Position numbers and translations under genes: made by a program
Notes under the pieces: generated by a model
Told to the model about the DNA's origin: nothing
The model's database searches: none
Seen by the model: only the letters and a program-made list of their open reading frames with translations
Source: Octopus vulgaris
Taxonomy: Eukaryota
NCBI GenBank assembly: GCA_951406725.2
Contig: OX597839.1
Span: 15,500,001 to 15,564,000 of the forward strand
Direction of reading: 5' to 3'
DNA: 64,000 nt
In this document: positions 17,251-31,225 of the stretch, in pieces
Layout of the letters: each line of letters starts with the position of its first letter
How positions within the stretch are numbered: the first letter of the stretch is position 1

Positions 17251-20200
17251 CATCATCATCATCATCATCGTTTAACGTCCGCTTTCCATGCTAGCATGGG
17301 TTGGACGGTTCAACTGGGGTCTGGGGAGCCCGAAGGCTGCACCAGGCCAGTCAGATCTGGCAGTGTTTCTACAGCTGGATGCCCTTCCTAACGCCAACCA
17401 CTCCGAGAGTGTAGTGGGTGATTTTATGTGCCACCGACACAGGTGCCAGATGAGGCTGGCAGACGGCCACGCTCGGATGGTGTTTTTATGTGCCACCGAC
17501 ACAGGTGCCAGACGAGGCTGGCAGACGGCCACGCTCAGATGGTGTTTTTATGTGCCACCGACACAGGTACCAGACGAGGCTGGCAGACGGCCACGCTCGG
17601 ACGGTGTTTGTTACGTGCCCACAGCACGGAGGCCAGTCGATGCGGTACTGGCTACGGTCCCGTTCAGATGGTTTTCTTATGTGCCACCGGCACTGGTACC
17701 ACAAGGATACAAATTCCATTGATGTTCATCTATTTTGATTTGGTTTGACTTGATTCAATTGACTTTGATTTGATTTGCCTCAACAGGTCTTCACAAGTGT
17801 CAGAAGCAGGAAGGTATGCACAGGCGGACTGACTACGTCCCAGGTAGGGGCCACGGGTTATGGCTTCACTAGTCTTGCCGGGTCTTCTCACGCACAGCAT
17901 ACTTCCATAGGTCTCGGTCTCTAGTCATTTCCATGGTGAGACCTAACGTTCGAAGGTCGTGCTTCACCACCTCGTCCCAGGTTTTCCTGGGTCTACCTCT
18001 TCCACGGGTTCCCTCAACTGCTAGGGATTGGCACTTTCTCACACACCTATCTTCATCCATTCTCGCCACATGACCATACCAGCGCAATCGTCTCTCTTGC
18101 ACGCAACAACTGATGCTTCTTATGTACAACATTTCTCTTAGGGAACTAACACTCTGTCGAGTAAGTACACTGACATTACACATCCATCGGAGCATACTGG
18201 CTTCATTCCTCATGAGCTTACGCATGTCCTCAGCAGTCACGGCCCATGTTTCACTGCCATGTAGCATGGCAGTTCGAACACATGCATCATACAGTCTGCC
18301 CTTTACTCTGAGCGAGAGGCCTTTAGTCACCAGCAGAGGTAAGAGCTCCCTAAACTTTGTCCAGGCTATTCTTATTCTAGCAGTTACACTCTCAGCGCAC
18401 CCACCCCCACTACTGACTTGGTCACCTAGATAACGGAAGCTATCAACTACTTTTTGATTTTTCCAGTTTCCCCCTGAGCTGTGACGGAAGTTGTTTCTGC
18501 AGATTTTCGGAGGTCAATGCTCCCGAGCATCTGCCACATATAAAAACTATCTTCCCAGTTAGCCTACCTTTGACATTGCTGCACCTCTTATGTGTCCATA
18601 GCTTACACTGGGTACATCTTATAGAGTTTCTACCTACACCTTTTCTACAGATCAAGCAGGGCCATCTTCCTGAGGACATTTGTGGATTGCCTACCTTTCT
18701 ACTTATTAGTACTTTGGTTTTAGCTAGGTTGACTCTAAGGCCCCTCGATTCTAAACCCTCCTTCCACACCTGGAACTTCTCCTCCAGTTCTGATAGTGAC
18801 TCAGCAATTAGAGCGAGGTCGTCAGCATAGAGGAGCTCCCAGGGGCAACCTGTCTTGAATTCCTCTGTTATTGCCTGGAGGACTATGATAAATAGGAGGG
18901 GGCTGAGTACTGAACCCTGGTGGACCCCAACCTCTACTTTGAATTCTTCTGTGTACATGTTGCCAACCCTAACCTTGCTTACGGCATCTCTGTACATGGC
19001 TTGCACAGCCCTCACCAGCCATTCATCTATCCCTAGTTTCCTCATTGACCACCAGATAAGGGATCGGGGGACCCTATCAAAGGCTTTCTCCATGTCAATG
19101 AAAGCCAGGTACAGGGGCTTATCTTTGGCTAGGTATTTCTCCTGCAGCTGCCTTACCAGGAATATAGCATCAGTGGTGCTTTTCCCTGGCACAAACCCAA
19201 ACTGCATCTCATCTAAACTAACTCTCTCTCTAATTAGTTGGGCTATGACCCTCTCCGTAACCTTCATTACCTGATCCAACAGCTTGATACCTCTGTAATT
19301 ATTTGTATCTAGGGCATCACCTTTACCTTTGTAGCAGTTGACTAGTACGCTGCTACACCAGTCATTGGGTATGACTCCTTCGTGTATCACCTGGTTGACT
19401 ATACGGGTGACTAGGTTATAGCCGACACTGCCAGATATTTTGAGCATCTCTGCAGTAATTCCTGATGGGCCTGGGGCTTTCCCTGTCTTCATGCTTCTAA
19501 TTGCCTTAGCTACCACGGAACTATCAACTCGGATAGCTGGTCCCTCTGTTGGGTCAACATTTGGCAGACTCTCTTTATCCCATTCATTTTCTTTATTCAG
19601 CAACCTTTCATAGTAGCATCTCCAAACCTCTCTCTTTGCATCCTCATTTAGCGCAAGTGAACCATCATCCATGCAAACACACTTCTCTCCTACCACATCA
19701 CGATTCTCTCTCACACACTGTCTTGCAACACGAAATACCTCAAGTCTTTCATCCTCATGGCGCAGAACATTGGCAAATTTTTTCTTATCTGCTTCCCCTC
19801 TGGCTAAATAAACCTGTCTCCTAGCTTCCCTTCTGGCTGTCTGATACAATTCCCTGCTACCACCGTTCTTCCAGTCCTTCCAAGCCTGTCTCTTTTGTCT
19901 AATAGCCCTGTCAACCACAGTGTTCCACCACCATGTTACTCTGGGTTGAGATGGTACTTTGCTCCATCCACAGATCTGGTCAGTGGCTGTCAGCAGATTG
20001 TCCCGTAGAAATCTCCAGTTGTCTTCCACATTAAGTGAAGCTATATCCCCTTCTATTTCGTCAAAGGCTTCGAGTAGTATGTCTCTAAATCTCTGTCCAT
20101 TTGCAGGATCTTTAAGCTTCCAGACCCTTCTCCTCCAAGCAGGTCTTCTTCTGGGCAACCATTTAGCTCTGACCCTGAAGTCGCTAACTACTAATCTATG

Positions 20201-21566
20201 TTGAGGAGTGCATTCTTCGCCTGGAAAGGTTTTGGCATTTATAATCAGCCCTCTTTCCCTTTTTCTGGCAAGGATGTAGTCAATCTGGCTGGTGTGTCTG
20301 CCAGAACGGTAGGTGACTAGGTGAGAGGAGAGTTTCCTGAAGTTGGTATTGCAGACCATAAGGTCATTTGCATCGCAGAACTCCAGCAGCCTGGTTCCCT
20401 CCTCATTACGAGAGCCGAAACCGTAGCCTCCATGGACGCCATGGAAGCCCCCGACATGCCGTCCGACATGTCCATTGAAATCACCTGCCACGAAGAGAAG
20501 GTCACTGTCATTTGTCAACGAGGTAGTTCGCAATAGGGTGTCATAGAATTGGTCTTTTTGTCCTTCCGGTAGCCCTGGTTGAGGGGCATATGCCGAGATG
20601 ATGGTAACTGTCCTGTGGTGAAGGACTAATCTAATTTTAATTACTCTGTCACTTACTCTGACTACCTCAATTACCTTACCTACCCATTTCTCTGCAAGAA
20701 GTATACCCACGCCCCCGACCCCGTCAGTGTTCCCTGCCCAGAAAATCTTGTACCTGTGTTCCTTGCCTGTGAGGAGCCTAGCGGAACCTCCTCTCCACCT
20801 TACTTCCTGGATACAACATACATCCACACGTCTCCGTTCAAGCAGCTCTACAATCTCTCCAGACCTACCTTTCAATGTGCCAACATTGAGTGTGCCAACT
20901 CTGAGGGTGTGGGCATCTGAGACCCTGGGATGAGGGGCAGCCGTGTCATGTACCAGTGAAATGACGATGGGATTTGATTCACAATTCATGTTGTTGGTAT
21001 CGGCTTGGCAACAGGTAATAACAGATGGCTTAAGGTAGTTCTTAGAAGAAAACTAGAACCCAAGAAACAGATAATTGATTTACCGTTTATGAGGTACACT
21101 GTAAGAGTTCTATATCAAGGTATTGCGTGTCGCAGTTGAGATTAATTGAATCACTCGTTGTGTTTATCTTTCTCTTGATATGAATATACTTCCAGACATG
21201 TTTCTGTAGCAGTTTTCTTCGTGGCGAGAATTTCACCTAACCGCTATAGTTGAATCTGTAGTTGTCTCGTGTACAATTTAAATCTTCGATGTTTGTCGAT
21301 TGGTTCTTGCTGCTTCTTCATTATATGTTCTGCTTGGTTATTTTTCTCTAGTTATAGATATCCTGTAACCGTTTTCTTCATGGTGATATTTCACACTAAC
21401 AGTATGAGAGGTATCTGTAACATCTTGTATTAATGGTGGTCGCCTGCCTCGAACTGTAACTTGGTCGAGTATGCTCTGTGTGGTCAGAGACTTAGCTCTT
21501 AAAAGAACTAAAAGCCTAAGACGAGCTGTGTGGTCAGAGGTTTAGCTCTGAGAAGAACTAAAAACC
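17251..21566 (-). mobile_element. Near full-length RTE-clade LINE: 5' UTR, APE-RT-PHD ORF, structured 3' UTR and (GAT)n tail
   Basis: ORFs 18443..20989 and 17869..18330. (CAT)n at 17251. Both ends abut (TA)n. Confidence 0.95.
17869..20989 (-). pseudogene. RTE ORF: apurinic endonuclease + reverse transcriptase + PHD-like finger + C-terminal domain, frameshifted near 18450-18500
   Basis: APE motifs GTLNV, IQE, SAYAP, GDFNG, SQIDY. RT motifs YRGIKLL, QFGF, DMEKAFD, GVHQGSVLSP, LYADD. C4HC3 cluster. C-terminal MLHGSETW and [15 protein letters not shown]. Confidence 0.93.
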
Positions 21567-23456: not shown

Positions 23457-23599
23457 ATTACTCTTTTACTTGTTTCAGTCATTTGACTGCGGCCATGCTG
23501 GAGCACCGCCTTTAGTCGAGCAAATCGACCCCGGGACTTATTCTTTGTAAGCCCAGTACTTATTCTATCGGTCTCTTTTGCCGAACCGCTAAGTGACGG
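23457..23599 (-). mobile_element. 3' portion of the tRNA-SINE, fused head-to-head with LINE copy D
   Basis: Near-identical to 21599-21742. Confidence 0.9.
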
Positions 23600-25658
23600 C
23601 AAAAAGTCCCGCCTAAAAATAAAACTGTTGGAAATCGAAAAATGTCTGCAACTCTCCCATGAAAAGGAAAGAGCAGACAAAGAAGCCTGGGCTATAGACA
23701 ACATAAAATCTAACCCCAGAGCTTTCTACAGGTATGCCAAAGAAACAGCTACGGTGCACTGTAGAATAGGGCCACTCCTCGAAAAGGATGGCACACTTAC
23801 AGGAAAACCAATGAGGGTAAGTGAAATACTGAATGAGCAATTCAAGAGTGTTTTCACTCCACCCCTTGGGCATCTCCAAATCACCAATCCAACTGACTTT
23901 TTTACCACTGCAGATATAGAATCAGAGGCGGCGACGATAAATTACATCGATATAAAGGAAGACGATGTAATCAAGGCTATAGATGAAATGAAAACAGACT
24001 CAGCTACTGGCCCCGATGGATTCCCGGCAATCCTCCTAAAAGCATGTAAGAGAGTCCTAGCAAGACCACTGCAGTTCCTCTTTCATAGCTTCCTTGCAGC
24101 TGGCAAACTTCCAAGAAAACTGAAGGAAGGTAAAATATGCCCCATTCATAAAGGAGGTAGCAGAGCGGAAGCCAAGAACTATAGACCTATCTCTCTGACC
24201 TCACACATCAGCAAGGTCATGGAACGAATAGTCAGAAGGAAGCTGATCACCTTCCTTGAAGAGAATGACTTGCTGCCCGACACCCAACATGGTTTCCGAC
24301 CAGGGAGAAGCTGTTTAACTCAGCTCCTACAACACTATGACTGGGTGCTGAAACGGCTGCTCAACCACTCAAATGTGGAAGTGATATATCTCGACTTTGC
24401 AAAGGCCTTTGATAAAGTCGATCATGGAATGATATGTCACAAACTGCGTGATCTCAACATAGTTGGAAAACTGGGAGAATGGCTTCAGGACTTTCTTAAA
24501 GATAGAAGTCAGGTGGTAGTGGCCAATGGGGCCACTTCCATTAACACGCAAATAGTGAGCGGTGTTCCGCAGGGCACTGTTCTGGGACCACTACTGTTCA
24601 TAATGGCCCTCTCAGACATGCCCTCAGCCACGCAGAGAGCCACGATCACAAGTTATGCAGATGATACAAAATTTTCACAGGCAATACAGAACCCTGAGGA
24701 CACTAAACACCTGCAATATGAGCTGGACAAAATATACAAGTGGGCTGGAAAGAATAGCATGCAGTTCAATGCTGAAAAGTTTCAAGCTCTATACTATCAG
24801 CATGCAAAACTAAATGCAATACCCAATGAATACACTGAACCCGGAGGAATAGCAATCCCAGAGGCACAATCAGTGCGTGACCTAGGTATTTACATGAGTG
24901 ATGACGCGACTTTTCGTGTACATGTTGCTAAATTGGCAATGAAATGTAGACGACTGGCCGGATGGATCCTCAGAACCTTTAGAACAAGAGAACAAGAAAC
25001 CATGATGGTCCTCTGGAGGACACTTGCCCTAAGCCACTTTGACTACTGCTCTCAGTTATGGTCACCATCCAGTGTCAAGTTGATCACAGAGCTCGAGGCG
25101 ATCCAACGAAGCTACACGAAGAAGATAGCCTCTATGCAGAATGTAAGCTACTGGGAAAGACTCAAGAGATTAAAACTATATTCCCTGGAGTGTAGGCGGG
25201 AAAGATATGCCATAATATACATCTGGAAGATCCTGGAGGGACGTGTCCTGAACTTTGGCATCGAGAGTTACGCAAATGCCAGAACTGGGCGCCACTGCGT
25301 GGTGCCTAGGACTCCAAACTTGCCATCAAGATGTAGGACAAGATACTGTGATAGCCTGGGCTTCCGAGGCCCACAGCTCTTCAATATCCTCCCGAAGAAC
25401 CTGAGAGACCTGCATGGGGTGGATGCAGATGTCTTTAAAATGAAGCTGGATCTCTTCCTGTCAGGTTTCCCAGATGAACCAACTTCACGGCAGGAGGGGC
25501 AGATGAGGGCAGCTGCATCGAACTCTCTCATGCACCAAATGGCAGTTGCTAGAAAGCTTTCGTGAAGTGAAACCAAGTAGCAACACCAAATGGCGGTGCC
25601 CCAGCATGGCCACAGCTCATAAGCTGAAACTAGAATCAATCAATCAATCAATCAATCA
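23600..25658 (+). mobile_element. CR1/L2-group LINE copy D, the longest copy, 5'-truncated (no endonuclease), with (TCAA)n tail
   Basis: Uninterrupted ORF to 25565. Tail at 25636-25658. Confidence 0.95.
23628..25565 (+). CDS. Non-LTR retrotransposon ORF2 fragment with an intact reverse transcriptase domain
   Basis: [56 protein letters not shown]. No stops; the frame is open back to the truncation point and has no true start. Confidence 0.85.
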
Positions 25659-28389: not shown

Positions 28390-28557
28390 AAAGTATGTAT
28401 ATATATATGTATATATGTATATATATATATATGTATGTATATATATATATATATGTATGTATATATATATATATGTATGTATATATGTATATATATATGT
28501 ATGTATGTATATATATGTATGTTTATGTATGTATATATGTATGTATATATATATGTA

Positions 28558-29640
28558 TTGGTCCCACTCCTGAACTATATGGTCGTTATATTGACGACAT
28601 TATCGGTGCCACCTCACTCTCCCGCGAACATCTAGATTCCTTCCTCTCTTTCGTCCAATCTTTCCATCCAGCCCTCCACTTCACTTCCACTATCTCCAAC
28701 ACCTCTGTCTCCTTCCTCGACATTTCGGTTAGCATTCTTCACTCCACTCTTACCACCTCCATTCACTACAAACACACAGACTCACACTCATACCTCAACT
28801 TCTCTTCCTCCCACCCAGAACACACCAAGCTTTCCATCCCCTATTCCCAATTCCTCCGTCTACGTAGGCTCTGTAGTGACGACCATGACTTTGAGACTCA
28901 GTCTCAACGTATGGCTCACCACTTCACCCTACGTGGATACCCCCTCACCACTATCCACACCGCCCTTGCCAGAGCATGGTCCGTGGACCGTGTATCTGCT
29001 CTCTCTCCCCGAACCCGCCCTGTAGTCTCCCGCCTCCCTTTTCCCCTCACTTACCACCCCACGACCCTACGTCTCCAACGCACCATTCTTCGAGCTTTCC
29101 GTCATCTCCAGTCCGACCCGTCCACTTCACACCTCTTCCCTAACCGACCCCTCCCCTCTTTCAAACGAGCCCACAACCTTCGAGACCTTTTGGTCCATAG
29201 CTCCTTCCCTGACCCTACCTCCCAACCCGGCTCGTTCCCCTGCTCCCGCCCACGTTGCCGCACTTGCCCTTACCTCTCCAACACCACCCGCCTCACTAGC
29301 ACCCACCATCGACCCTATCCCATCATCCACTCCTTCACCTGCACCTCCAGCAATATTATCTATTGCATCTCTTGCTCTCTCTGCAATTCCTTGTACATCG
29401 GACAAACGGGACGCCGCTTGGCTGACCGGTTCGCGGAACACCTTCGTGACATCCACCTTGCGAACGACACACCGGTCTCACGCCATTTCCGCTCCACCGG
29501 TCACTCCTTGCAACACCTATCTGTGTTCGGTTTGTCCTTACACAGAGGCCATCCGGATTCCCGTTTGCGCCGTGAACAGGAATTAATCTTCTCTCTTCGC
29601 TCTTATACGCCATTTGGTCTCAACTCTCCCCCCTCCTCAT
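28558..29640 (+). CDS. Penelope-like RT (C-terminal half) + GIY-YIG endonuclease
   Basis: Genuine part of ORF 28329..29969; the N-terminal YI and C-terminal P/S/L stretches come from low-complexity DNA. Confidence 0.8.
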
Positions 29641-30460
29641 CTAACCCCCTCTCCCCCTCCTCACCTATCCTTTCTCCCCCGACCCCTACTTCTTCAGTCC
29701 TTCATCCTTTCACCCCTACTCCCCTTCCCTTCTTCCCTCTTTCTCCCTCCCTCTTCCCCTTCCCTCTGCTCCCTCACTCCCTCTCTCCCCTTCTCTCTCC
29801 CCCTCTCCCTCTTTCCTCCTTCATCCCCCTCATCCCCTTCCTTCTCCCCCATCCTCTCCTCTCACCTTTCTTCCCCTCCCCTTCTCTCCCCCTCTTCTCC
29901 CCCTCCCCTCTTCTCCTCACTACACCACATGACTTTACACATCACATCACATATGATGTGCCATACTAATACACACACCAACTAATACATACTAATACGT
30001 ACTAATACATACTAGTACATACTAATACTTACACCAACCCTATACATACACACGTCCAGACCTCTCATACGCACTTATACTCTCTCTCACACACACACAC
30101 ACACCTATACATACCAATACGTACTAATACATACTAATACATACTAATACATACACCAACCCCATACATACGCACGTCCAGACCAATCTTACGCACTAAT
30201 ACTCTCTCATACACACACACACACCCTTATACATACTAATACATACACCAACCCTATACATACACACATCCAGACCCCTCCCACGCACTTTTAGCTGGTC
30301 CCTCAACCCATTTATCAACCCTATTATCTCCCCTTATTTCGCTCTCGCGTCTCATGTTTGATCTTTGACCTCTGGCCGAAATCAGATCGCCATGTTGATT
30401 CGTTAGCTACTGCACGCATTTTTTTCTCTCCTTCTTTCTGTGTTTTTCTCTCTCTGTGTA

Positions 30461-30498
30461 TCTTTCTGTTGAAGAGCGTAGGCTCGAAACGTTAAAGA
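30461..30498 (+). ncRNA. Candidate minimal hammerhead ribozyme, atypical CUGUUGA(A) core
   Basis: TCTTT-CTGTTGA-A-GAGC GTAG GCTC-GAA-ACGT-T-AAAGA. Confidence 0.55.
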
Positions 30499-30890
30499 CT
30501 TGTTTTATTTATATTTCTTGAGCGCCATACTAATACAATTGTTCGTTTGTTTTCCACCTGCCTTCGTCTTTTGTTTATTTTCATAAAGCTTCCCGTTATA
30601 TATATATATATATGTGTATATATATATATGTATGTATATATATATATATATGTATGTATATATATATGTATATATGTATATATATATATATGTATATATG
30701 TATGTATATATATATATATGTATGTATATATGTATATATATATGTATGTATGTATATATATGTATGTTTATGTATGTATATATGTATGTATATATATATG
30801 TATGTATATATATATATATGTATATATATATGTATGTATATATATATATATGTATGTATATATATATATATATGTGTGTGTATATATTTG

Positions 30891-30937
<47 letters not shown>

Positions 30938-30938
<1 letters not shown>

Positions 30939-31225
30939 GAGGTGCAATGGCCCAGTGGTTAGGGCAGCGGACTCGCGGTTTCGATTCCCGGACCAGGCGT
31001 TGTGAGTGTTTATTGAGCGAAAACACCTAAAGCTCCACGATGCTCTAGCAGGGGGTGGTGGCGATCCCTGCTGTACTCTTTCGCCGCAATTTTCTCTCAC
31101 TCTTTCTTCTGTTGGCTTGCTCGCTTAGCTAGCGGGGTGGCGTTATTTGAAGGCTAAAACAATGCGAAACGTAATGTGACCAGCGATGTGTAGCAACATC
31201 TGATAGCCTGGTCGGTCACGGTGAT
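30938..31225 (+). mobile_element. tRNA-derived SINE, same head/body as 15072 but a different 3' tail
   Basis: GGAGGTGCAATGGCCCAGTGGTTAGGGCAG..GGTTTCGATTCCC head; (TA)n on both sides. Confidence 0.85.

What the first reader, a model, noticed from the sequence alone, without database searches (positions are those of the whole stretch)
30461..30498. Second atypical hammerhead (CUGUUGA-A core) at the end of a bona fide Penelope-like element
Seen: stem I UCUUU/AAAGA, core CUGUUGA plus an extra A, stem II GAGC-GUAG-GCUC, GAA, palindromic ACGU stem III, and a GUU triplet, about 100 nt from the element end. The position fits known PLE hammerheads, but A6 is U. Together with 6530-6574, this gives two different non-canonical cores in one window. 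Inference: this genome may hold a hidden population of variant ribozymes.
Basis: partly seen in the sequence, partly recalled or inferred. Interest (0 to 1): 0.7.

Follow-up and report, generated by a model that had tools for sequence, protein, structure and literature searches.

The report
Detuned hammerhead motif in Neptune retrotransposon
This is the hammerhead-ribozyme motif at the tail of a young, very abundant Penelope-like jumping gene, and almost all of its roughly 17,000 genomic copies carry U at a core position that is normally A; the change likely slows self-cutting, which makes the family a natural test of whether such elements need to cut their RNA.

Summary
The motif is there as described. 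It lies in the terminal repeat of a 5'-truncated copy of a young Neptune-type Penelope-like element (PLE). U6 is the family state: of 17,850 exact matches only 197 have A6, fewer than the 448 with C/G6. The extra A and the GUU triplet are published traits of PLE minimal hammerheads, so U6 is the only oddity. U6 is derived: basal copies, sister families and metagenome relatives have A6, with stem covariation. Since U6 arose, 35 of 38 motif positions stayed unchanged while flanks diverged about 0.5 per site; positions 7 and 17 changed repeatedly. No excess of insertion ends marks the predicted cut (0 of 101 upstream boundaries), and U6 is predicted to pair over the dimer palindrome. Best reading (0.55): a slowed, likely protein-assisted ribozyme in an element copied from uncut RNA. 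Rivals: non-catalytic recognition fold (0.28); efficient cut-and-religate (0.12). Cleavage is untested. The genome also holds canonical, U3-A8 and U4C cores. This scan noted A6U PLE hammerheads before in other genomes (unchecked notes). I found no paper on it, but Lunse 2017 was unreadable here.

The parts
28559..30598 (+). 5'-truncated copy of a Neptune-type Penelope-like element, between (TA)n tracts; last 2.04 kb of a 4,579-nt unit
   Evidence: 96.8% identical to positions 2492-4579 of the unit of full-length copy L237; unit length
28557..29969 (+). Open frame remnant: RT from the YIDD motif, thumb, Cys linker, GIY-YIG endonuclease, low-complexity tail (P0001, 470 aa)
   Evidence: the full frame is 1,079 aa in L237
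29241..29267 (+). CX2-5CxxC linker motif (CSRPRCRTC), a mark of Neptune/Nematis PLEs
   Evidence: definition in PMC8557442 passages
29355..29459 (+). GIY-YIG core with two internal cysteines
   Evidence: Pfam PF01541 E=0.0027, 18.4 bits, below the curated cut-off of 22.6; motif visible
30385..30400 (+). Zone where 5' truncations and template jumps cluster (about -200 to -212 from the element end); RT stop or RNA start, unresolved
30461..30465 (+). Stem I, 5' strand (UUU and C conserved; the outer U pairs only in some subfamilies)
30466..30472 (+). Core strand C3 U4 G5 U6 U7 G8 A9; 30469 is the A6U change, 30470 the free position 7
30473..30473 (+). Unpaired A between 9 and 10.1, a published trait of PLE minimal hammerheads
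   Evidence: PMC4209133; invariant in 15 of 15 rows
30474..30485 (+). Stem II GAGC/GCUC with GUAG loop and the G10.1-C11.1 pair
   Evidence: 96.7% of cells paired, 3 of 4 pairs with double changes
30486..30493 (+). G12 A13 A14 A15.1, palindrome ACGU (stem III only in a dimer), U16.1, U17; predicted cut after 30493
   Evidence: dimer model from PMC4209133; cleavage not tested
30494..30498 (+). Stem I, 3' strand
30499..30598 (+). Rest of the terminal repeat up to the fixed 3' end; (TA)n target follows from 30599
   Evidence: same end in 29 other loci; unit junction in 151 places
6530..6574 (-). Second motif, UUGACAA (U3-A8) core with ACCGGU palindrome, at the end of a different young PLE family (fragment 6488-7547)

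Best explanation
The motif is the minimal type I hammerhead of the terminal repeat of a young Neptune-type PLE, in which A6 changed to U in an ancestor and is now carried by almost all copies; it likely keeps the hammerhead fold but is predicted to cut slowly, and the element is likely copied from RNA that is uncut at this site. Shown: full-length copies are repeat-ORF-repeat with the U6 motif in both repeats, about 4.5 kb apart; insertions end 105 nt downstream of the predicted cut and read through it; the motif is frozen while the flanks diverge, except at positions 7 and 17. Inferred: A6U weakens the CUGA turn and lets UGU pair with ACG, which hides the ACGU palindrome needed for the dimer; slow cleavage would then occur only with help, most likely from the element's own protein as reported for an anole PLE, and would serve RNA processing or turnover rather than make the template for insertion.
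For: Family state: 197 A6 and 448 C/G6 of 17,850; U6 in 95 of the first 100 rows and 91 of the first 100. Youth: 150 of 150 scored EN matches at 99-100% identity; 14 of 18 long-frame loci have the U6 motif upstream as well as downstream, 1 has another subfamily's U6 motif upstream, 3 none. Descent from canonical: 24 descriptor hits in 80 metagenome PLE loci, 18 CUGANGA, 3 CCGANGA, 3 other, 0 CUGU (reversed control 2); the G000 proteins form one clade (100/100) beside such elements (93/91, not starred); flank-only trees put A6 rows outside and at the base, U6 rows at the tip. Structure: 7 of 9 pairs with double changes, covariation 0.62 against 0.21 shuffled and at most 0.15 slid (15 hand-picked rows). 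Selection after U6: over six subfamily steps position 7 changed 5 times, 17 three times (A/U only), stem I end once, the other 35 never, while the 3' flank took 49 substitutions on about 91 sites. Position 7 is the free position of the consensus, and G17, which impairs minimal hammerheads (PMC3884650, abstract), is the majority in 0 of 8 subfamilies. Slow cutting: CUGA mutants had low activity in a mutational scan (PMC9901934); a natural A6C cut at <0.1/min (PMC3088659); P(G5-C15.2 pair) 0.98 here against 0.10 and 0.23 in natural A6 copies of close subfamilies. Uncut template: 0 of 101 upstream boundaries within 3 nt of the cut, 96 beyond, 5 short (95% upper bound 2.9%). Precedent: the anole PLE hammerhead cuts only with protein and is dispensable for insertion in vitro (PMC11167929).
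Against: No cleavage was measured and no RNA ends could be read (contigs only). Every sign of retained fold fits a non-catalytic protein-binding fold as well. Read-through does not separate uncut RNA from cut and re-ligated circles. Among 37 distinct TA-flanked 5' ends in 30471-30501, 6 begin exactly at the cut (first 100 of 579 rows, tallied by hand); 5 begin at the other TA dinucleotide, so microhomology explains it, but low-level cutting is not excluded. The closed fold is weak in the G7 and C7 subfamilies (0.14, 0.54) and the window motif folds no better than shuffles (z -0.79). U6 itself is not shown to be selected: no change is expected about 58% of the time at the flank rate. Subfamilies were sorted by hand using flanks and position 7, and basal A6 rows came partly from A6-targeted searches. 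Forks at the A6/U6 boundary are weak.
Confidence: 0.55

Rival explanations
1. A catalytically dead descendant: the hammerhead fold, or the closed rod that U6 favours, is kept only as the site that the PLE protein binds for packaging or RT positioning.
For: A6 changes cost activity; no footprint at the cut; the GUAG loop is frozen in all 8 subfamily majorities, as a binding site would be; sister families tolerate U4C; Naiad PLEs thrive without canonical hammerheads (PMC8557442).
Against: The positions that change (7 and 17) and those that do not (C3-G8, G12, U16.1) follow the catalytic consensus; C3 and U16.1 would be unpaired in the rod yet never change; natural A6C and U4C hammerheads keep low activity.
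Confidence: 0.28
2. An efficient ribozyme in the cell: the two motifs of a repeat-ORF-repeat transcript cut as a dimer, ends are ligated, and a unit-length circle is reverse transcribed, which hides the cut in genomic copies.
For: Two motifs 4.5 kb apart in full copies; near-invariant unit junction in 151 places; upstream repeats up to 2,156 nt and perfect arrays; a 4.5 x 492-nt array with 5 motifs at 99% identity; model proposed in PMC4209133.
Against: A6U should impair the core; mini-arrays have their own breakpoints, none at the cut, and the one shared pair (L268/L284) is a larger duplication; read-through of tandem copies explains the same patterns.
Confidence: 0.12
3. The 38 bases are conserved as DNA, for example as a promoter or protein-binding element of the terminal repeat, and the RNA fold is a relic.
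For: PLE repeats hold promoters (PMC6765202); within the U6 lineage the stems are invariant, which alone shows no pairing.
Against: Compensatory changes in both stems across related elements; freedom exactly at positions 7 and 17.
Confidence: 0.04
4. This copy is a decayed canonical hammerhead, or the resemblance is chance.
For: None found.
Against: U6 in nearly all of 17,850 matches, intact young copies included; control 0.
Confidence: 0.01

Closest known systems
Minimal type I hammerheads (min-HHR) of metazoan PLE terminal repeats (Cervera and de la Pena 2014, PMC4209133; read: main text parts 1-2 of 4, supplementary file 2 part 2 of 3 plus a term search of it; file 1 not searchable)
   Same: Position in the repeat, short stem I, unpaired base between 9 and 10.1, G10.1-C11.1, GAAAC-GU-H palindrome in place of stem III, U17 common, two copies flanking the ORF.
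   Different: U at position 6. The published consensus is CUGANGAH, the only core variant in the parts read is U3-A8, and no row seen has U6. The family is also far more uniform than the 'highly variable' families described.
Poseidon PLE hammerhead of Anolis (PAc; PMC11167929; read: passages and section 3 part 2)
   Same: PLE hammerhead upstream of the RT start site; uncut RNA is the main insertion template; no RNA ends at the cut.
   Different: Canonical C3-G8 motif overlapping the ORF start, protein-assisted cleavage shown; here Neptune clade, 3' UTR position, U6, nothing assayed.
Natural core variants A6C (phage Bcep176), U4C (viroid), U3-A8 (Perreault et al. 2011, PMC3088659; passages)
   Same: Single change in the CUGA turn in a natural hammerhead, with reduced activity.
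   Different: Those are rare single sequences with full stems; here the change is fixed in about 17,000 copies of a spreading element, and it is to U.
Small dimeric PLE hammerhead variants of Lunse, Weinberg and Breaker 2017 (not held; known only from PMC6765202 section 11 and reference lists)
   Same: Short palindromic stem III, dimer cleavage, PLE association.
   Different: Could not check whether that set contains or tested U6 cores.
Non-LTR retrozymes (PMC7229834 passages; bioRxiv 10.64898/2026.07.22.740005 part 1 of 5)
   Same: Internally deleted 290-540-nt tandem derivatives of this PLE carry the motif in each unit.
   Different: The window copy is a coding PLE fragment; the derivatives have private breakpoints and no dispersed family was seen among 100 of 151 junction places.

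Membership tests
PLE minimal hammerhead (min-HHR) | Core CUGANGA (or UUGANAA) | tested here: not met
   U at position 6 in the window and in 95 of the first 100 genome matches
PLE minimal hammerhead (min-HHR) | C3-G8, A9, G12, A13, A14, A15.1, U16.1, H17 | tested here: met
PLE minimal hammerhead (min-HHR) | Stems I and II supported by covariation, G10.1-C11.1, unpaired base after A9 | tested here: met
   (15 hand-picked rows; related sequences can beat shuffles, but the slid controls are also far lower)
PLE minimal hammerhead (min-HHR) | Palindromic 15.2-16.2 allowing a dimer; copies in both terminal repeats | tested here: met
   ACGU; both repeats in 14 of 18 long-frame loci. The dimer fold itself was not the predicted minimum-energy cofold
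Hammerhead ribozyme (functional class) | Site-specific self-cleavage after H17 | not testable with these tools
   Only contigs were offered; genomic ends show no excess at the site
Hammerhead ribozyme (Rfam models) | Match to a curated hammerhead model | tested here: not met
   No hit at E<=10 on 30380-30590; not tested whether canonical min-HHRs would score
Neptune-type EN+ PLE | Single ORF with PLE RT and C-terminal GIY-YIG with internal cysteines | tested here: met
   P0002, 1,079 aa; homologues carry RVT_1 and GIY-YIG Pfam hits; the window's own GIY-YIG hit is below the curated cut-off
Neptune-type EN+ PLE | CX2-5CxxC linker and (TA)n target bias | tested here: met
   definition
Neptune-type EN+ PLE | Phylogenetic placement in Neptune rather than Nematis | not tested
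   No labelled reference sequences were in hand; the linker is shared by both clades, so the name Neptune is inferred
Non-LTR retrozyme | Non-coding tandem unit amplified as a dispersed family through small circles | tested here: not met
   Window copy is coding; mini-arrays have private breakpoints

The most novel reading that the evidence does not exclude
A6U is a selected brake: it turns the PLE hammerhead into a switch whose monomer hides its own dimer palindrome until the element's protein opens it, and the element keeps re-tuning the rate through positions 7 and 17, which changed 5 and 3 times while the flank changed about 0.5 times per site. The same A6U would have arisen independently in PLEs of other animals, so PLE ribozymes would evolve towards low, protein-gated activity, and large populations of them would be invisible to CUGANGA searches.
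Probability: 0.2. Interest if true: 0.7.

Novelty: new variant of a known kind. Interest (0 to 1): 0.45.

Why it matters
Why PLEs carry hammerheads is open: they cut poorly in vitro, and in the one reconstituted system cutting was dispensable. Here one genome holds a dated series of natural variants in one lineage: A6 ancestors, then U6 with each letter at position 7 and A or U at 17, the newest still spreading. Assaying that series would show directly whether an element can thrive with a crippled or dead ribozyme and what the frozen fold is kept for. It also means that descriptor-based counts of hammerheads miss some of the largest families.

Tried and rejected
Rfam on the whole window gave only (TA)n-driven hits among the 150 of 433 listed and nothing on the motif. 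The repeat finder was swamped by microsatellites. RNA evidence: no RNA holder listed; only contigs were laid. Cross-species check of U6: the motif is the best-covered part of the stretch in runs labelled organisms A-E, but the difference tables list nothing at position 7, which is known to vary, so the lack of a row at position 6 says nothing. Idea that U4C stabilises the same closed fold as A6U: rejected, P(G5-C15.2) 0.07 and 0.01 in two natural U4C copies. Idea that a mini-element had spread as its own family: rejected, L268 and L284 match over the whole 3 kb; this lowers the -195..-205 cluster from 7 to 6 independent boundaries of 101. Idea that U6 itself is under selection: not shown (see the Against line). 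Idea that all A6 copies are decay: partly wrong; the genome-wide count is at decay level, but a small old group has A6 as its own state. Pattern scan of viral contigs: 78 matches, none with a U6 core and both stems. Kink-turn reading considered by eye and dropped (no canonical stem next to the G-A pairs). Literature: 'hammerhead'+'A6U' gave 3 papers, the 2 listed on twister ribozymes and an RNA selection; 'hammerhead' with CUGU-type cores gave 34, of which the 20 listed show no PLE paper; passages of PMC11014351, PMC8490949 and PMC6155905 had nothing on A6U. Lunse 2017 is not held, so novelty in print stays open. Look-ups of earlier scan notes by sequence found nothing.

Full report
OBSERVATION. 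A pattern with positions 5-7 left free has 17,850 exact matches in G000 (2.8 Gb) and 0 when read backwards. Rfam has no match on the region.

THE ELEMENT. Upstream lies a frame with YIDD, a CSRPRCRTC linker and a GIY-YIG core. The linker and the (TA)n target are the marks given for Neptune/Nematis PLEs in PMC8557442 (passages); the name Neptune is my inference, not a tree result. The window copy covers the last 2,040 bases of a 4,579-nt unit. The subfamily is young: all 150 scored matches to the endonuclease region are 99-100% identical, many in frames above 1,000 aa. Of 18 such loci fetched, 14 are repeat-ORF-repeat with the same U6 motif in both repeats about 4.5 kb apart, 1 has another subfamily's U6 motif upstream and 3 have none upstream. 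The intact protein is 1,079 aa. The fixed 3' end, followed by TA, is 105 nt downstream of the predicted cut.

IS U6 THE CONSENSUS? Yes. Of the 17,850 matches, 197 have G5-A6 and 448 have G5-C6 or G5-G6, so A6 is no commoner than ordinary point decay. U6 stands in 95 of the first 100 rows, and in 91 of the first 100 rows of a looser pattern with 23,515 matches (7 A, 2 C). Position 7 is free: 24 U, 23 A, 14 C, 8 G in 69 fetched copies (this sample left out rows already fetched by A6-targeted searches). The extra A is not a novelty. PMC4209133 lists a conserved nucleotide between 9 and 10.1 and gives the consensus CUGANGAH-G...C-GAAAN-NUH, with U17 in many rows. In the parts I read, the only core variant is U3-A8 and no row has U6.

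ORIGIN. A scan of metagenome contigs with a protein alignment returned 80 loci of related PLEs (best 80 of 520). They hold 24 descriptor hits: 18 CUGANGA, 3 CCGANGA, 3 others, no CUGU; the reversed control gave 2. The nearest have a stem II of the same length. In a protein tree of 29 rows the six G000 rows of this lineage form one clade (100/100) beside those elements (93/91, not starred). An ungapped alignment of 15 hand-picked motifs shows double changes in 7 of 9 pairs, covariation 0.62 against 0.21 in shuffles and at most 0.15 in slid controls; the outermost stem I pair fails in 13 of 15. Trees of flanks only, with the motif removed, form a ladder: sister families with A6 outside, an old group of A6 copies with the same GUAG loop at the base, U6 subfamilies above, the window's at the tip. 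Forks near the A6/U6 boundary are weak, a side branch may be a second origin, and A6 rows were over-sampled by design. So A6 is ancestral and U6 derived within this lineage.

SELECTION AFTER U6. I sorted 54 copies by hand into 8 subfamilies along that ladder. After the A6-to-U step, position 7 changed 5 times, position 17 three times (A and U only; or two separate A-to-U changes), the outer stem I base once, and 35 positions never. The 3' flank took 49 substitutions on about 91 sites over the same six steps (0.54 per site), the pyrimidine-rich 5' flank more. About 19 changes would be expected in 35 free sites. The grouping used position 7, but the flank-only tree gives the same order. The pattern is hammerhead-specific: 7 is the free position, and G17, which impairs minimal hammerheads (PMC3884650, abstract only), is the majority in none of the 8. 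That 7 and 17 tune the rate is recalled, not read here. U6 itself cannot be called selected, since no change is likely at the flank rate.

DOES IT CUT? Not testable here; only contigs were offered and no RNA holder was on record. Indirect evidence points to slow cutting. In a mutational scan of a hammerhead, changes in the CUGA turn other than the C-G swap had low activity (PMC9901934, passages); a natural A6C cut at under 0.1 per minute (PMC3088659, passages); G5 and A6 stack in the turn (PMC11300833, passages). U6 also lets UGU pair with ACG, the palindrome needed for the dimer: P(G5-C15.2) is 0.98 in the window subfamily, 0.86 with A7, 0.54 with C7, 0.14 with G7, against 0.10, 0.23 and 0.0 in natural A6 copies of matching subfamilies. 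The gain is 0.2-2.4 kcal/mol where it forms, and the motif folds no better than shuffles.

GENOMIC FOOTPRINT. If a cut linear RNA were the template, insertions should start at 30494. The unit junction occurs 151 times; I fetched the 100 listed places. Of 101 distinct boundaries upstream of a junction (some are template jumps, 4 run off the fetched stretch), 0 lie within 3 nt of the cut, 5 fall short and 96 read through (upper bound 2.9%). Among solo copies with a TA flank, the first 100 of 579 rows give 37 distinct loci in 30471-30501: 6 start at the cut, 5 at the only other internal TA, 8 at the anchor edge (hand tally). Microhomology with the target accounts for this, though one of the six has none. 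Ends cluster more at 30385-30400 (6 independent boundaries of 101). So the template is uncut at this site, or cut and re-ligated.

MECHANISM. Shown: position, fixation, descent from a canonical motif, purifying selection, read-through. Inferred: a tandem or read-through transcript carries two motifs; the protein nicks (TA)n and starts reverse transcription 105 nt past the motif; U6 slows the core and hides the palindrome, so most RNA stays whole; residual, likely protein-assisted cutting serves processing or turnover (0.55). Rivals: a dead fold kept for protein binding (0.28), efficient cutting with circles (0.12), a DNA-level role (0.04), decay or chance (0.01).

THE WIDER POPULATION. The second motif, 6530-6574 on the minus strand, has a UUGACAA core, the published U3-A8 covariant, in 25 of 25 loci examined. 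It belongs to another young family whose long copy L253 encodes a PLE RT and endonuclease; its stem II to G12 link is unusual and I did not resolve it. Held loci also show, off-target, a U4C family (CCGACGA), a U3-A8 family and canonical families; a U4C sister with a GUCU loop makes up about a fifth of the first 100 rows. Some 'canonical' CUG copies of the U4C families are probably CpG decay (inference).

NOVELTY. It works like a PLE minimal hammerhead but fails the strict core test, so I file it as a new variant of a known kind. I found no paper on A6U in PLEs, but Lunse et al. 2017, the likeliest place, is not held, and one supplement of PMC4209133 could not be searched. Earlier notes of this scan report A6U PLE hammerheads in other genomes, one of them cartilaginous-fish-like; I did not check them. 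The best-identity named homologue is a shark protein at 57% over 77% of the query. Since U6 arose within the G000 lineage, those cases would be convergent if they hold. Interest 0.45.

Noticed in passing
L329 (G000:C8:18599500-18604500), also L279, L338, L264, L312, L271, L316, L258, L268/L284: Internally deleted derivatives of the PLE in tandem, units of about 290-540 nt, each with the U6 motif; L329 has 4.5 copies of 492 nt at 99% and an inverted copy. Retrozyme-like, but breakpoints are private; L268/L284 is one duplicated locus.
   Followed up: partly
window 30385-30400 and equivalents: Hot zone of 5' truncation and template jumps about 200-212 nt before the element end; an RT stop at a hairpin or an RNA start. 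A possible-RNA run (X5) shows a ninefold depth step there, which contigs cannot establish.
   Followed up: partly
L297, L314: Two insertions end 150 nt past the unit junction and have an inverted segment upstream, suggesting a second RT start site and a tail longer than the 30-40 bp described for other PLEs.
   Followed up: no
G000:C6:117391925-117400899; G000:C10:7331879-7336360: Head-to-tail arrays of full units with exact junctions about 4.47 kb apart; candidate source loci.
   Followed up: partly
L027, L048, L074, L114, L121, L138, L181, L210: A family with a U4C core (CCGACGA, 3-nt loop) turned up repeatedly off-target, so it may be very abundant; it was not counted.
   Followed up: partly
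window 6488-7547 (minus strand); L253:4811-7120: End of a second young PLE family; in L253 the RT and endonuclease lie in different frames; copies often come as inverted pairs; two extra bases sit between stem II and G12 of its motif, and 10 of 25 loci have a mismatch in stem I.
   Followed up: partly
window 18443-21052 (minus) and 23487-25565 (plus): Two LINE-type frames: 869 aa with endonuclease and RT Pfam hits, 692 aa with RT.
   Followed up: no
window 30938-31000: A tRNA-like SINE head follows the (TA)n tract (reading recalled, not tested).
   Followed up: no
L236:3937 and 7808: A young copy inserted into the TA tail of an older subfamily's 3' end, giving a hybrid with two different U6 motifs.
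   Followed up: no
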